A stretch of 64,000 nt of DNA from a virus (taxonomy: Duplodnaviria > Caudoviricetes), in the IMG/VR virus record IMGVR_UViG_3300008262_000055. One strand, given 5' to 3'. This document shows, one piece after another, positions 13,026 to 19,323 of the stretch (the first letter of the stretch is position 1; every line of letters starts with the position of its first letter). Both the position numbers and the translations under genes were made by a program. The notes under the pieces are model-generated. The model was not told the DNA's origin and did not search any database. It saw only the letters and a program-made list of their open reading frames with translations.

Positions 13026-15692
13026 TCACTCAAAATCAAACAATTTGCTGAATGTATTATCCGACCTAGTTGAACTGATGTCCCATTCCAAAACACCAAT
13101 TAGGTTTTCTAACTTTTCATCGATAACTGTGGTTTCCATTTCACCGTCGGCGAAAGGCAAGTCTTTGAACCATTGAGGAAGTCTAAGCTCGTCAACAGGA
13201 TAAGCTACACTAGTATAGCCCATTGGATTATCTTTGATCTTACATACAATGACTTTAGCACCATCAGTGATACTCATGCTGTATTTGTCATCATTCATGC
13301 GTTTCAAAGTATTCCAATTTAAGCTAGCTCGAACATGTCCTGGCATGTTTGCTTTGCCTTGTTTCTTTTCTTTGGCCTGATACTCAGTGATATTGTTGGC
13401 TCGTTTAGGAGAACCTTTTTCCCAACCCGGCCGTGTTTTAAATTCAGTTCTAAAATTAGTAATGTATTCTAGGACTTCTTCTTTAGGCACACCGTTTAGG
13501 ACTTGTTCTAGCACTTGACTTAAGAAATCTTGAATAACAACTGGAGTGTCTGAACGTTTAAGATCTAGACCCATAGCCTTGATCTTTCCCGGTTTACCAT
13601 TTACATCTGCTCGTTTACCTTCTTTATCATAATAAAGAACAGCATAGCGTTTCTTAGTAATAAACAGACCTTTTGAAGCTACTAGTTCTCTTCCTGCTTT
13701 GATAACTTCGCCGCGAGTTTTAGGACAATGAAACTTATCTTGCATCATTTTAGGAAAGCTGGCATTTACCTCATCTGCTATTTGGTCGTAGAGTTGGACT
13801 ACAGTTTCTTTATTCCAAGGTAACTGACCGCTTTCAATTTCTTTTTTCAACACAGGGTAAGCGGAAAAATAACAAGAGTCTGTGTCGCCGTAGATTACAG
13901 CTTTTCCTTTGTAATCATATTCGCCTGTGGCTATTTCATTTATTTTACCAGCCATGTGTCTAACAATCTGTCTACCACTAAGTGTAGTACTTTGACCAAT
14001 CCTGTTATCAAAGAATCTACAGCCGGGATTAAGAATAGCACCATACAGGCTGTTTAGGTTAATCTTTTTAACTAATTGACGCTTGTCCCAGTATTCTTCT
14101 TCTACTTTATTTCCGGCAGCAATACACTCTTTGAGTTTGGCCTGCATCTCTTTACGTTCAGCGTACCAGCGTTTTAACAATCCGGGAATAACACCTTCTT
14201 TTTCGTAAGTGAAAATTGTACCGTTAGCAGAAATCATCCAAGGTTGATTACTTTCGAAGATAAGGTCATAGATTTGAGCACCACTTAGGGTATCGCTACC
14301 CCCACCTTCCCAATCAATTGTAATTTCTTTGGCAATATTTCTTTCCATCACGAATTCGTATTCAAGACTACCAAATATACCTTCCCAAGCAGCAGCAAAT
14401 GATTTTCCCTTGCCCATTTCCTGTTCAATGTAATTTTTTGTATAGTCTTGACGTAATTGTCCAACAATAGTCTCTGGACCCATATTCAAAGCACGAATCG
14501 CTGACGGATACAGCGAGTTAATATCAACTGAACCGATCCATTCGTGGATACCTTTCTTTGGATACGCAACATACGCACCCGCAGCCGGCTCTGAACCAGG
14601 TTCTCTTCGGATCCTATTAGGAACAATCATTCCTCTTCGATGAGCTTCGTTAATAATAGCCTGTTCAGTAACAGCTACAGCACCCATAGTTGTCTGTAAT
14701 AATACAGTACATTCATGTGCTAGTTTGTTAGCAAGATCTAAAAACTTTAGTTTTTTGTCTAATTTATCTAACAAGGCCGTGTCTTGTCTATTGTATTCAA
14801 TGAACTTACGGAAATCGTTGTTATACAGTTGATCCAACGTACCTTCGTAGACAGTCTTGTTCTCACCTATCTCCATTTCTCCAATAGCATCAAGTCTGTA
14901 TGTGTGGCGTTCTTCATAGGTATATTTGCGGTACAACTCGAGACTGTCCAGATGAACACGACCAACAAGGTCATAAGTAACAGCTTGCCTTCCATACTTC
15001 TCATACTCTCGTTTCTTTGGATATTGATCCCACAGACAGAATCTACGTGTGTCGTCTTTGCTTAATACCTTGGTTACACGATTAACAGTATAAGGAATAT
15101 CAAAGCCTTCTGAGTTCCATCCGCTTAATACATCGGCGTCTTGGATTAAATTTAGGAAGTTGTCTAACAGCTCTGCTTCTGTTTCAAAAATATAAGTATT
15201 AGGAAATTCTGCTACTGCTTGTTTAGCTTCTTCTACGGTGAGAGTTTTTGGAGGTATAGCTAAACATACTAGAGTATCTAACCATTGTAAGTGTACAGCA
15301 ATAGCAGTTATAGGCATAAACGCATCTTCTGGTGATGCGTAGCCACGCTCAGGATCAAAGTCTACTTCAATGTCAAAGAATGCTACATGTAATTTGGGGG
15401 AGTCTTGATTTAGATAATTGTCTTCTAGACATCGATAAATTGGATTTATATCCGATTCATACAGCTTCATACCGCTGTGTATTTTAAGTTCTTTATGTAG
15501 GTCTTTGAGATTTTTACAAGTTACACGGCTAAGTGGTTCGCCGTTAGTACTAGTATATTTGCCCTTAGGGTCTTGAAAGTAAAAGATATGTCGAGCAGGA
15601 TATTCTTTAAAATGTCTATGGCCATTATCGTCTCGTTCAACGATGTGGATAGTATCCTGATCGCGATTATAGAATGCGTCAACGTAACTCAA
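13026..15692 (-). CDS. polB: family B DNA polymerase (T4 gp43-like)
   Basis: Exo FDIEVD, WNSEGFD, YNRQD; pol DINSLYPS, KINLNSLYG, YGDTDS; TTG start with AGGAG SD. Confidence 0.97.
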   Translation of the reverse strand: MSYVDAFYNRDQDTIHIVERDDNGHRHFKEYPARHIFYFQDPKGKYTSTNGEPLSRVTCKNLKDLHKELKIHSGMKLYESDINPIYRCLEDNYLNQDSPKLHVAFFDIEVDFDPERGYASPEDAFMPITAIAVHLQWLDTLVCLAIPPKTLTVEEAKQAVAEFPNTYIFETEAELLDNFLNLIQDADVLSGWNSEGFDIPYTVNRVTKVLSKDDTRRFCLWDQYPKKREYEKYGRQAVTYDLVGRVHLDSLELYRKYTYEERHTYRLDAIGEMEIGENKTVYEGTLDQLYNNDFRKFIEYNRQDTALLDKLDKKLKFLDLANKLAHECTVLLQTTMGAVAVTEQAIINEAHRRGMIVPNRIRREPGSEPAAGAYVAYPKKGIHEWIGSVDINSLYPSAIRALNMGPETIVGQLRQDYTKNYIEQEMGKGKSFAAAWEGIFGSLEYEFVMERNIAKEITIDWEGGGSDTLSGAQIYDLIFESNQPWMISANGTIFTYEKEGVIPGLLKRWYAERKEMQAKLKECIAAGNKVEEEYWDKRQLVKKINLNSLYGAILNPGCRFFDNRIGQSTTLSGRQIVRHMAGKINEIATGEYDYKGKAVIYGDTDSCYFSAYPVLKKEIESGQLPWNKETVVQLYDQIADEVNASFPKMMQDKFHCPKTRGEVIKAGRELVASKGLFITKKRYAVLYYDKEGKRADVNGKPGKIKAMGLDLKRSDTPVVIQDFLSQVLEQVLNGVPKEEVLEYITNFRTEFKTRPGWEKGSPKRANNITEYQAKEKKQGKANMPGHVRASLNWNTLKRMNDDKYSMSITDGAKVIVCKIKDNPMGYTSVAYPVDELRLPQWFKDLPFADGEMETTVIDEKLENLIGVLEWDISSTRSDNTFSKLFDFE

Positions 15693-15704
15693 ATTTTTCT
15701 CCTA

Positions 15705-15749
15705 TGCCATTTGCGGCTGGCAAACCAAACAGATCATTTATGGCTGATC
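15705..15749 (-). promoter_or_regulatory. tandem twin hairpins in polB leader (candidate translational operator)
   Basis: Minus strand GATCA-GCCATAAA-TGATC and TGCCA-GCCGCAAA-TGGCA; second hairpin abuts the SD. Confidence 0.65.
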
Positions 15750-15760
15750 AAACCTTATTC

Positions 15761-16051
15761 TTAAGTACTTAGCATCCTAACTAACCCTACTGAGTCAATT
15801 GTGACCAACAATAGGTAATTAGCCAGCATCCCAAAGGAACCACGACTATAAGCACACCCAGCGTATATAGCACAACCAGTAATCCAAATTGGGTAAAGTA
15901 TAATGAGAGGTGGTGTTGGAACGGTGAGTGCCATAGTGATAGAACAGCCAATGCTAATAGCCCAAGCAACGACCTCAAGACAAAAACGAACTCCATTGCT
16001 CGAATAGTCTTGTTTGATCCATGTAGCTGTTCCATTTAAAATATCTATCAT
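15761..16051 (-). CDS. hypothetical membrane protein (3 TM)
   Basis: Three hydrophobic segments. Confidence 0.7.
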   Translation of the reverse strand: MIDILNGTATWIKQDYSSNGVRFCLEVVAWAISIGCSITMALTVPTPPLIILYPIWITGCAIYAGCAYSRGSFGMLANYLLLVTIDSVGLVRMLST

Positions 16052-16308
16052 TCGGGTAATCTTTTTGTAACACCTAAGATCATTTCAATTTCGTCCCACT
16101 CTTCTTCATGGGATTTCCAATTATCTTTATGTGCGATTTTAATTGCTTTGTTAATAATACTAGGTTTTACTTGTAATTCTTCTGCGACTGCTTTTACAGT
16201 TTCTTTAAGACCTTCACTTAAATCTTCAATTTCACGAAGTACATTACCACCTTCGTTAATCAATCTTTCTAATTTTGCTTTTTCTTCAGGTCCGTACATT
16301 TTTGCCAT
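16048..16308 (-). CDS. T4 DsbA/GapR-like dsDNA-binding protein
   Basis: EIEDLSEGLKETVKAVAEELQVKPSIINKAIK pattern; GGAG SD before MAKMYG. Confidence 0.6.
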   Translation of the reverse strand: MAKMYGPEEKAKLERLINEGGNVLREIEDLSEGLKETVKAVAEELQVKPSIINKAIKIAHKDNWKSHEEEWDEIEMILGVTKRLPE

Positions 16309-16346
16309 TTGTAAACTCCAAGTAATAATGTATATTATATAGTCAT

Positions 16347-16378
16347 AAAAAAAGCCAGTCAAGTAATGACTGGCTTTT
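16347..16378 (-). terminator. rho-independent terminator
   Basis: Inverted repeat aaaagccagtca/tgactggctttt with T-tract on the minus strand. Confidence 0.8.
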
Positions 16379-16394
16379 GTTTACCAAAAGAAAT

Positions 16395-17348
16395 TTATTC
16401 TTTGATAATTTTATGTAGGTTCCATTCGCCGCCCATTCTTTCATAGGTAGCAGCAGCAAATGCCTGTGCTTGAACAGATTCGTTAAATTTGCTCTTACCT
16501 ACACGCTCTGCCCATGACCATAAATCTTTGTCCATAGGATCAATTTGAAATTGGCCTCTACTTTCTCTAACTACTTGAAGTGCTGTAGCAAAGGATAATG
16601 ATTCTTTAGCTTTCTTTTTGCCAAAGAATTTTTCTTGCTTGGCTGACATGCCTTTCTTAGCACCGTCTTTGGCAGCAGGTGTTTTACCTTTTCCTAGGTC
16701 CTTAGGACCTTTTCCGTCTTGTGCGTAATCCGGAATGCCGTCTTTGTTAGCGTCTGGCTTGGCACCTTCTTTAACAGATTCGTCTTTTTTACGATTGTCA
16801 AATTTTTCGCCGTCTTTCATACCCCAGGTCTTAGCACTCTTTGGAGATTGTTTTTGTTTTGGAGCACGATCTTTCTTTTCCGCTGCTGACATTGACTTAG
16901 CATGGCTCTTTTTACCCTTGCCTGACTTCTCTTCGCTGTCCCCGCCATCGTCGTAGCTTTCTGGATCACGTTCGTGTTTGATACCAGTTGCTGTTTTAGT
17001 AATTGTGCCACCGGAAGCTGATTTCTTTTTGTCGCCAACTTTCATTTCTTCTTTAACAGCTTCGGTTGTCTTTTTAGCTGTTGCTGTAGCAATAGCCATC
17101 TTTTTAGATTTTTTCATGCTAGGGTCGTCTTTTTCGATTGCCTTAGCAACTTCTTCTTTCTTTTTCTTTTCGGCTGCTGTTAATTTCTTTTCAGCAATAA
17201 CAGATTCAGTTAGTTTTGTAACACCAGCTAGAACACGTAATTCTGTGCCTTCGTCTAATCTAATAGGATCGGCTTGTTTTGGTGCTTGAACTCCCTTTGG
17301 AGGAGCAGACAAATTGTCTAGTTTGTTAATTATAGATTTAAAATCCAT
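16395..17348 (-). CDS. Lys/Glu-rich putative internal head protein
   Basis: MDFKSIINKLD...LRVLAGV; low complexity; DANKDG loop; start at 17348 with AAGGA SD. Confidence 0.7.
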   Translation of the reverse strand: MDFKSIINKLDNLSAPPKGVQAPKQADPIRLDEGTELRVLAGVTKLTESVIAEKKLTAAEKKKKEEVAKAIEKDDPSMKKSKKMAIATATAKKTTEAVKEEMKVGDKKKSASGGTITKTATGIKHERDPESYDDGGDSEEKSGKGKKSHAKSMSAAEKKDRAPKQKQSPKSAKTWGMKDGEKFDNRKKDESVKEGAKPDANKDGIPDYAQDGKGPKDLGKGKTPAAKDGAKKGMSAKQEKFFGKKKAKESLSFATALQVVRESRGQFQIDPMDKDLWSWAERVGKSKFNESVQAQAFAAATYERMGGEWNLHKIIKE

Positions 17349-18076: not shown

Positions 18077-19249
18077 TTATTTACCGCTTTTCATATTGGC
18101 ACACCAATGATACATTTTAGCCTTTTCGCCGGAAGCATTCTTGGCTTTTTTTCTTAAATCAGTTACTGATCCATCACAACTAGCACCGGCACGTTTTACA
18201 CGCCCTGGCCTACTTTTGCCTTTGACTTTGCCATCGGCAAAATTTTCTACGTTGTACCTAGGATCAGTTTTTTGACGCTTCATTCCCTTAGGTTGTTTAG
18301 GATCAACCGGATCAATATCAGTAGTAGTTAATCCTGTTTTTTCTAAATCTTGAATATACTTGTGTTCTTCTTCTTCGTCACCAAACGATAAAATAGTACT
18401 TGGAGGCCCTTGGCCAAAATCGTGCTTGCCTAATCCCTTAAGATTAGCAATATGCATTCCTAGTTTATACCAATCGTAGACATCACTGACATCAACTTTT
18501 ACTGTACCTTTTGGCATAGTAGGTTTAGCTTCCGGACCATATGGCTCATCATTAACGTGTCGATCTTCACCACCAGCACCGTCCCCGCCGATACCACCAT
18601 CACCGCTGTACCCTACTGCTGTACCGTAATAGCCATATGGTCCTGGACCATAAGCAGCCCACCGACTACGTTTCTTTTTTCTTCTAGCTTCGTCTATGTT
18701 TTCAGTTGGCGTATTAGATAAAATTTCTTTAGCATCACGTAACCCGTCTAATACTTTTTTAAGACTGTCTTCATCTGCTTGATATTTGATAGCAATCCCG
18801 CCAGCAGCCTGCCACTTTCTAATGTTTACACCATAGTCGTCAATTAGTATATTAGGTACACCATTGGTATTAGCATACATTTGTTTTTCATGTTCAAACA
18901 CCCACGCATCGGCAGGCACGTTGATATGTTTTGCTAACCACTCTTTCTTGCCTTTGATACTACCTGCTTTGTCAAAGTTTAATGGACTACTTAAGATTTT
19001 GTATCCGCCAGCAAAGTTTTTAACAATGCTTAATAATTTATTAGCGGTAGGAAATGCTGGAAGTCCTTTAAAAAGTTCGTAGGCATTTGAATCTTTAAAA
19101 AACGTTTCCCATTGATCCTGAGTCATCTTGTTGTAATGTTCTACATCGTGTAATCCGCCAACGTGATTAAACAAGTCAGCAAGAACACCGTCCATGTCAA
19201 CGTAGACTGTAACACCTTTAGGTAACTGATTTAATTCTTTAGCTCGCAT
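18077..19249 (-). CDS. HAD-family 5'(3')-deoxyribonucleotidase-like protein with C-terminal extension
   Basis: YVDMDGVLAD and ILIDD HAD motifs; start MRAKEL. Confidence 0.75.
   Translation of the reverse strand: MRAKELNQLPKGVTVYVDMDGVLADLFNHVGGLHDVEHYNKMTQDQWETFFKDSNAYELFKGLPAFPTANKLLSIVKNFAGGYKILSSPLNFDKAGSIKGKKEWLAKHINVPADAWVFEHEKQMYANTNGVPNILIDDYGVNIRKWQAAGGIAIKYQADEDSLKKVLDGLRDAKEILSNTPTENIDEARRKKKRSRWAAYGPGPYGYYGTAVGYSGDGGIGGDGAGGEDRHVNDEPYGPEAKPTMPKGTVKVDVSDVYDWYKLGMHIANLKGLGKHDFGQGPPSTILSFGDEEEEHKYIQDLEKTGLTTTDIDPVDPKQPKGMKRQKTDPRYNVENFADGKVKGKSRPGRVKRAGASCDGSVTDLRKKAKNASGEKAKMYHWCANMKSGK
18078..18084 (-). promoter_or_regulatory. T4-late-like promoter GTAAATA
   Basis: Motif 4 nt upstream of ATG 18073. 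Confidence 0.45.
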
Positions 19250-19323
19250 CAATGATCACCGTAAGGATTTATTGGACGATCTTCTTCGCTCTGTTGTTCG
19301 GGGTATACTGGATATTTGTTCAT
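19249..19323 (-). CDS. 24-aa micro-[27 protein letters not shown]
   Basis: Hand-translated; ATGA overlap upstream and TGATG overlap downstream. Confidence 0.55.

What the first reader, a model, noticed from the sequence alone, without database searches (positions are those of the whole stretch)
15692..15749. Twin 5-bp/8-nt-loop hairpins with matching loops before the polymerase SD
Seen: GATCA-GCCATAAA-TGATC and TGCCA-GCCGCAAA-TGGCA have different stems but near-identical loops (GCCRYAAA); the second ends 1 nt before AGGAG and the gene starts with TTG. Established: T4 gp43 represses its own translation by binding a short leader hairpin. Inference: a duplicated autogenous operator, where stem divergence with loop conservation suggests loop recognition by a protein.
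Basis: partly seen in the sequence, partly recalled or inferred. Interest (0 to 1): 0.65.

Follow-up and report, generated by a model that had tools for sequence, protein, structure and literature searches.

The report
Twin RNA pseudoknots before phage polymerase gene
Just ahead of the DNA polymerase gene of an uncultured giant phage lies a conserved pair of small folded RNA elements, found only at this gene, that probably let the phage control how much polymerase it makes.

Summary
On the minus strand, two 5-bp/8-nt-loop hairpins (15749-15732 and 15722-15705) lie between the stop of a small upstream ORF and the AGGAG/TTG start of a T4 gp43-type polymerase gene.

In about 200 distinct leaders of related uncultured jumbo phages, both hairpins persist. 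Their stems change by compensating substitutions. G-U pairs place the fold on the mRNA strand.

A covariance model finds the motif nowhere else. It was run on the window, on eight long related contigs and on one complete 329-kb genome. This looks like a gene-specific element, not a repeat or a regulon.

The conserved loop start GCY pairs with a conserved RGY triplet 1-3 nt upstream of each stem. GGY goes with GCC and AGY with GCU, with no discordant case. So each unit is probably a mini H-type pseudoknot with an A-rich third loop, and loop conservation is no longer good evidence of protein read-out.

The element is absent from Rfam and shares no sequence with the T4 operator, though the hairpin geometry is identical.

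Most likely function: a translational operator at the ribosome-binding site, probably autogenous as in T4. The binding partner is untested.

The parts
13026..15692 (-). Family B DNA polymerase gene (T4/RB69 gp43-type), TTG start at 15692-15690
   Evidence: ORF listed. Pfam DNA_pol_B and DNA_pol_B_exo1 match. Collinear with RB69 gp43 chains in the PDB, E 5e-66. The start position is conserved as ATG or TTG in relatives.
15699..15703 (-). Shine-Dalgarno AGGAG, 6 nt before the start codon and 1 nt after hairpin 2
   Evidence: Sequence read. In relatives the GGAG core begins 0-7 nt (mode 2) after the hairpin 2 stem.
15705..15722 (-). Hairpin 2 (SD-proximal): TGCCA / loop GCCGCAAA / TGGCA
   Evidence: Sequence. 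98.5% of cells are paired in 52 leaders, and 4 of 5 pairs show double changes. 100% paired in 110 distinct units, but these were selected for a stem of 4 bp or more. Covariance model score 32.8 bits.
15724..15726 (-). GGT triplet, proposed 5' strand of pseudoknot stem pairing with loop-2 GCC (15717-15715); one T (15723) as loop L1
   Evidence: The RGY triplet covaries with loop GCY: GGY+GCC in 241 units, AGY+GCT in 45, none discordant. Confirmed by column counts and by the concordant versus discordant pattern scan.
15732..15749 (-). Hairpin 1 (distal): GATCA / loop GCCATAAA / TGATC
   Evidence: Sequence. Stems in relatives include AATCA/TGATT, GCGG/CCGC (with or without a 1-nt bulge), AACCA/TGGTT, AGTCA/TGACT, GTCG/CGAC and AAACG/CGTTT. 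Covariance model score 31.1 bits.
15752..15754 (-). GGT triplet, proposed 5' strand of pseudoknot stem pairing with loop-1 GCC (15744-15742); TT (15751-15750) as loop L1
   Evidence: GGT or GGC lies upstream of every GCC-loop hairpin 1. AGT lies upstream where the loop is GCT (L229, L291).
15761..16051 (-). Upstream ORF, 96 aa, small hydrophobic protein with no family match; its stop lies 7 nt before the first GGT
   Evidence: ORF and translation. No Pfam or PHROG match.

Best explanation
The 50-nt stretch 15705-15754 (minus strand) is a cis-acting RNA element in the polymerase mRNA, made of two tandem units.

Each unit is RGY, then 1-3 nt, then a 5-bp stem of free sequence, then an 8-nt loop GCY-NN-AAR. 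The RGY probably pairs with the loop's GCY, which would make a compact H-type pseudoknot. The A-rich remainder of the loop would lie along the 3-bp stem.

The second unit ends 1 nt before the Shine-Dalgarno sequence. The most likely function is a gene-specific translational operator: a factor that binds and stabilises the folded units blocks or traps the 30S subunit at the adjacent ribosome-binding site. By analogy with T4, RB69 and RB49 gp43, the most likely factor is the polymerase itself when it is not engaged on DNA (autogenous repression).

Shown here: the hairpins, their conservation, the stem covariation, the sense-strand orientation, the restriction to this gene, and the RGY/GCY covariation.

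Inferred: that the pseudoknot actually folds, that the element controls translation, and which factor binds it.
For: Conservation:
- All 98 distinct leaders of polB relatives fetched by protein similarity or by loop pattern carry two GCC-loops closed by a base pair.

Stem covariation:
- Hairpin 2 is 98.5% paired, and 4 of 5 pairs show double changes.
- The whole structure is 82% paired against 65% in shuffles, and 12-42% when one strand is slid out of register.
- Single units are 96% paired, with 87 doubly changed cells.

RNA on the sense strand:
- Hairpin 2 has 12 G-U pairs against 1 A-C.

Gene specificity:
- Covariance model R1 scores only the two leader hairpins in the window (32.8 and 31.1 bits; next best 12.6).
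- It finds only polB-leader sites in eight long contigs and in a complete 329-kb genome with terminal repeats.
- In an IMG/VR pattern scan, every match in which a loop sits in a hairpin stem of 4 bp or more lay upstream of polB (62 of 83 matches). The 21 non-polB matches had no such stem.

Pseudoknot:
- GGY+GCC 241 units, AGY+GCT 45, none discordant.
- Three independent switches on the polB tree for hairpin 2, all concordant, plus one lineage for hairpin 1.
- The covarying column pair is GC 74, AU 21.
- In the same sequence context, AGT...GCT occurs in 14 polB leaders and AGT...GCC in none.

Position:
- Hairpin 2 ends 8-19 nt (mode 12) before the start codon.
- In some relatives its stem extends to pair with the first bases of the SD.

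Precedent:
- T4 gp43 is an autogenous repressor that binds an 18-nt hairpin (5 bp plus an 8-nt loop) upstream of its RBS. RB49 has UAAA in its loop (PMC3014915).
- The T4 operator read directly from the genome is AGCCU-AAUAACUC-GGGCU.
- This polymerase is a collinear gp43 homologue.
Against: - No binding or repression data exist.
- There is no sequence similarity to the T4 operator.
- The review states that some T4-related gp43 proteins do not autoregulate.
- If the pseudoknot is real, nearly all conserved bases are explained by RNA folding, so little remains that points to sequence-specific protein contact.
- The hairpins are thermodynamically weak (z = +1.1).
- The pseudoknot rests on one covarying pair with only 4-5 independent events. 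The sign test on hairpin 2's three independent switches gives p = 0.25.
- The element was lost or gained at least 7 times within the clade and is absent from polB clades at 53% identity or less. It is therefore dispensable.
Confidence: 0.45

Rival explanations
1. A protein-independent cis element. The tandem compact folds could stabilise or process the polycistronic mRNA, insulate the RBS from upstream structure, or couple polB initiation to termination of the upstream ORF, whose stop lies only 7 nt before the first unit.
For: The pseudoknot model explains the conserved bases by RNA folding alone. The element sits in a short intercistronic gap directly after an ORF stop. In lineages that lost it, polB abuts or overlaps the upstream ORF.
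Against: A general stabiliser or insulator would be expected at many genes. This motif occurs once per genome. The tight, conserved spacing to the SD fits control of initiation better than decay.
Confidence: 0.22
2. A small-molecule riboswitch. Two tandem mini pseudoknots would bind a metabolite, for example a signal of the nucleotide pool, and gate the adjacent SD, in the manner of tandem-hairpin or mini-pseudoknot riboswitches.
For: The architecture is two units with variable stems, invariant loop bases, a possible H-type pseudoknot with an A-rich loop, and a position abutting the SD.
Against: No Rfam family matches. Very few conserved bases are left free to form a pocket. One stem pair swaps G-C for A-U freely. 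The motif is restricted to one gene in two sister phage clades, whereas riboswitch classes normally serve several genes and taxa.
Confidence: 0.12
3. An operator for a different RNA-binding protein, such as a phage RegA-like or SSB-like repressor or a host protein, rather than the polymerase.
For: The positional and structural evidence is the same as for the main explanation. T4 uses several translational repressors (PMC3014915).
Against: Global repressors such as RegA act on many mRNAs, and this motif is unique to polB. No RNA-binding gene was recognised next to it: the neighbours are a small hydrophobic protein and a DsbA-like DNA-binding protein.
Confidence: 0.12
4. A DNA-level site (a palindromic operator, an origin element or a terminator), or a chance pair of palindromes.
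For: Perfect inverted repeats. Hairpin 1 carries two GATC sites.
Against: Half-site sequences vary freely while complementarity is kept. G-U pairs outnumber A-C pairs 12 to 1 on the sense strand. There is no T-run and no terminator call at the site. The chance rate is 5 in 200 shuffles, yet the element is conserved in about 200 leaders.
Confidence: 0.03

Closest known systems
T4/RB69/RB49 gene 43 autogenous translational operator
   Same: It lies in the 5' leader of the orthologous gp43-type polymerase gene, just upstream of the SD. The hairpin has a 5-bp stem and an 8-nt loop, as in T4. Loop 1 here ends in UAAA, as reported for RB49.
   Different: There are two units rather than one. There is no sequence similarity. 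The conserved loop bases are GCY..AAR rather than UAAC. An upstream triplet probably forms a pseudoknot, which the review says has not been seen for the gene 43 operator. The hairpin abuts the SD (1 nt) instead of lying 7 nt away. Polymerase binding is untested.
T4 gene 32 operator (5' pseudoknot nucleating gp32 binding)
   Same: It is a pseudoknot in the leader of a replication gene that is under autogenous translational control.
   Different: The gene and protein differ. The gene 32 pseudoknot lies far upstream of an unstructured AU-rich tract. Here two mini pseudoknots lie directly against the SD.
Guanidine-II (mini-ykkC) and preQ1-I riboswitches (recalled from general knowledge, not tested beyond Rfam)
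   Same: Mini-ykkC has two tandem hairpins with variable stems and matching conserved loops before an SD. preQ1-I is a very small H-type pseudoknot with an A-rich loop.
   Different: Neither family matched in Rfam. The loop sequences and pseudoknot topology differ. No ligand is known. The element is confined to one phage gene.

Membership tests
T4-type gp43 translational operator | Lies in the leader of the gp43-type polymerase gene, at or next to the RBS | tested here: met
   The polymerase is collinear with RB69 gp43. Hairpin 2 ends 1 nt before AGGAG.
T4-type gp43 translational operator | Hairpin of about 5 bp with an 8-nt loop (18 nt in T4, 16 in RB69) | tested here: met
   Both hairpins are 5 bp with an 8-nt loop. 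The T4 operator was read from NC_000866. Sizes are given in the review.
T4-type gp43 translational operator | Conserved loop bases UAAC (UAAA in RB49) and sequence relatedness to the T4/RB69 operator | tested here: not met
   Loop positions 4-5 vary freely and the conserved bases are GCY and AAR. The covariance model of the unit does not match the T4 leader.
T4-type gp43 translational operator | Specific binding by the polymerase and repression of its own translation | not testable with these tools
   This needs EMSA or filter binding, toeprinting and a reporter assay.
Any Rfam 15 family (including mini-ykkC, preQ1-I and small ribozymes) | Covariance-model match | tested here: not met
   cmscan of 15000-16500 at E up to 10 gave no match overlapping 15690-15760.
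H-type pseudoknot (structural class) | A second helix between a flank and the hairpin loop, supported by covariation, with loop lengths that can span the stems | tested here: inconclusive
   One pair covaries perfectly: GGY/GCC 241, AGY/GCU 45, none discordant. Only 4-5 independent events support it. The other two pairs are invariant or change on one side. L1 of 1-3 nt and L3 of 5 nt fit the geometry by general knowledge. No probing data exist.

The most novel reading that the evidence does not exclude
The twin units are a new class of tandem mini-pseudoknot riboswitch that senses a small molecule, for example a signal of the nucleotide pool, and sets synthesis of a viral replicative polymerase. 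It would be the first such class dedicated to a phage DNA polymerase gene.
Probability: 0.1. Interest if true: 0.9.

Novelty: new variant of a known kind. Interest (0 to 1): 0.62.

Why it matters
Autogenous translational control of gp43 is a classic of T4 biology and gave SELEX its first target. It has been documented only in T4 and a few close relatives.

Here a large, environmentally abundant clade of uncultured jumbo phages carries a different RNA at the same place in the orthologous gene. It is duplicated, supported by covariation and probably pseudoknotted.

If the polymerase binds it, this would be an independent solution to the same regulatory problem, and a natural pseudoknot ligand for a family B replicative polymerase.

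If it does not, the element is an undescribed structured RNA family with a clear alignment, ready for Rfam and for biochemical testing.

Tried and rejected
- **Genome-wide repeat or regulon.** GCCRYAAA is not enriched in the window (6 found, 7.45 expected). Relaxed loop and stem scans find no other copies. The covariance model finds none in the window or in nine long related contigs.
- **Known RNA family.** None matched in Rfam.
- **Homology to the T4 operator.** No match.
- **Promoter reading of the conserved ATGCTAA upstream of hairpin 1.** This is the C-terminus (..RMLST) of the upstream ORF. The degenerate motif is not enriched in the window (8 found, 14.8 expected).
- **Terminator.** There is no T-run and no terminator call at the site.
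- **Thermodynamic support.** None (z = +1.1).
- **Motif in more distant polymerase clades.** Absent from Phosso, L217, L267, L377-L379 and L380-L396.
- **G-U intermediate (GGT...GCT).** The metagenome scan returned only four chance matches.
- **Tool and source limits.** Petrov and Karam 2002 (PMC137073) is not held. A second literature search failed on a term format.
- **Hairpin 1 of the sister clade.** Its loop is ACUUNAC, and it fits the pseudoknot rule only in part. I left this unresolved.

Full report
**What is there**

The finding lies on the minus strand. An 888-aa ORF (13026-15692, TTG start) encodes a family B DNA polymerase (Pfam DNA_pol_B and its exonuclease domain). It aligns end to end with RB69 and T4 gp43 structures (E 5e-66).

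The closest cultured phages are jumbo phages: Sinorhizobium Phosso at 51% identity, Atu_ph07 at 47%, and the Rak2/121Q group at about 43%. No whole genome is held for the window.

Upstream lie a 96-aa hydrophobic ORF with no family match and a DsbA-like transcription-factor gene.

The leader was read. In order it contains:
- the stop TAA (15763-15761);
- hairpin 1, GATCA-GCCATAAA-TGATC (15749-15732);
- an 11-nt linker;
- hairpin 2, TGCCA-GCCGCAAA-TGGCA (15722-15705);
- one T, then AGGAG (15703-15699);
- six nt, then TTG.

**Is it more than chance?**

Within the window the loop word is not enriched, and only these two copies sit in hairpins. A twin of this kind arose in 5 of 200 shuffles. The leader is not unusually stable (z = +1.1). 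The sequence alone is therefore only suggestive.

**Comparative evidence**

IMG/VR holds hundreds of contigs with a polymerase 82-95% identical to this one. All of their leaders carry both hairpins.

In an alignment of 52 distinct leaders:
- Hairpin 2 is 98.5% paired, and four of its five pairs show changes on both sides.
- The whole structure beats all 500 shuffles and all slid registers.
- Hairpin 1 scores lower in that alignment only because one subclade has a GC-rich 4-bp stem with a 1-nt bulge.

A loop-pattern scan of IMG/VR gave 83 matches:
- Every match in which a loop sits in a stem of 4 bp or more lay upstream of a polymerase gene (62 matches).
- The 21 non-polymerase matches had no such stem.

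In 98 distinct leaders, hairpin 2 has 12 G-U pairs against 1 A-C pair. The fold is therefore on the mRNA strand and is not a DNA palindrome.

**Specificity to one gene**

A covariance model of the single unit (R1) scores only the two leader hairpins in the window with filters off: 32.8 and 31.1 bits, with the next best at 12.6. It finds only polymerase-leader sites in four long related contigs and in five more. One of those five is a 329-kb genome with terminal repeats that CheckV rates complete. There is no sign of a regulon.

**Range**

- The twin element persists down to about 73% polymerase identity.
- A sister clade at about 64% keeps an SD-proximal unit with loop GCU-NN-AAR and has a different first hairpin.
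- Clades at 53% or less, and Phosso, lack the element.
- Within the two clades the SD-proximal unit changed presence or absence at least seven times on the polymerase tree, and 19 of 200 leaders lack it.
- In many leaders that lack it, the gene abuts the upstream ORF.

**A pseudoknot**

Each hairpin is preceded, 1-3 nt upstream, by a conserved RGY triplet.

- I took the nearest RGY without reference to the loop. GGY then goes with loop GCC in 241 units, AGY goes with loop GCU in 45, and there is no discordant case. All apparent exceptions were spurious overlapping hairpins.
- On a polymerase tree the switch occurred three times for hairpin 2, always together on both sides, and once more in hairpin 1 of L229/L291. 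With so few events the sign test is not significant.
- On an ungapped alignment of 110 units the covarying column pair is GC 74, AU 21. The combined structure is 95.6% paired against 80% in shuffles and 23-35% when slid. These units were selected for a stem of 4 bp or more, so the stem percentages are biased upward, while the triplet-loop pair was not selected for.
- As a direct attempt at refutation, I scanned IMG/VR for the same context carrying the mismatching combination (AGT...GCC). It gave 20 matches, none of them a polymerase leader. The matching combination (AGT...GCT) gave 14 polymerase leaders, each with a 5-bp stem.
- A search for the G-U intermediate found only chance matches.

By general knowledge of H-type pseudoknots the geometry is sound: a 3-bp first stem, a 1-3 nt L1, a 5-bp second stem, and a 5-nt A-rich L3. 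I regard the pseudoknot as likely but not proven.

The conserved loop bases can be explained by RNA folding, so they are not in themselves evidence for protein read-out.

**Function**

The SD-proximal unit ends 8-19 nt (mode 12) before the start codon, and the GGAG core begins 0-7 nt after the stem. In some relatives the stem extends into the SD. A ligand that stabilises the fold would obstruct or trap the 30S subunit.

T4 gp43 does exactly this through an 18-nt hairpin of 5 bp with an 8-nt loop. RB49 has UAAA in its loop, but some relatives do not autoregulate (PMC3014915). I read the T4 operator directly from the genome, and it has the same geometry. There is no sequence relationship to it, and no Rfam family matches.

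A motif that occurs once per genome, at the RBS of a gene whose orthologue is a known autogenous repressor, is best explained as an autogenous operator. I put this at about 0.45.

The rivals are:
- a protein-independent structural or coupling element (0.22);
- a riboswitch (0.12);
- another protein (0.12);
- a DNA-level site or chance (0.03).

**Limits**

- The identity of the binding partner, the effect on translation and the tertiary fold are all untested.
- The primary paper on the operator's RNA determinants is not held.
- Another note in this scan reports the same twin loops in a different genome. This agrees with the family-wide conservation shown here.

Noticed in passing
window 16334-16362 (-): A strong sigma-70-like promoter match (TTGACT, 17 nt, TATAAT; 11 of 12) overlaps the listed TTG start of the DsbA-like ORF (16048-16362). 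The family matches begin at residue 25-44, so the real start is probably further downstream. This promoter could drive a DsbA-like / 96-aa / polB transcript.
   Followed up: partly
L297-L376 (sister clade), e.g. L298:500-600: The sister clade has a different first hairpin. Its loop is ACUUNAC or GCUAUAC, with conserved flanks GAGUCG and CAUGUAGAGU. It obeys the triplet-loop pairing rule only in some members.
   Followed up: partly
L305, L306, L311, L313, L314, L321, L326, L330, L349; L383-L392: In lineages without the element, the upstream ORF runs right up to or overlaps the polymerase start (for example TGATTAATG). This suggests translational coupling has replaced the operator.
   Followed up: no
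window 15690-15692 and relatives: The polymerase start codon is TTG in the window and in 34 of 98 distinct related leaders, and ATG in 55. The weak start is a recurrent, tolerated state.
   Followed up: partly
window 15987-16002 (-): A terminator-like hairpin followed by a T-run lies inside the 5' part of the 96-aa ORF. Either it is a chance match or the ORF starts later than listed.
   Followed up: no
window 18077-19252 (-): A 391-aa ORF whose N-terminal 165 residues match a 5'-3' deoxyribonucleotidase PHROG. The rest is unassigned.
   Followed up: no
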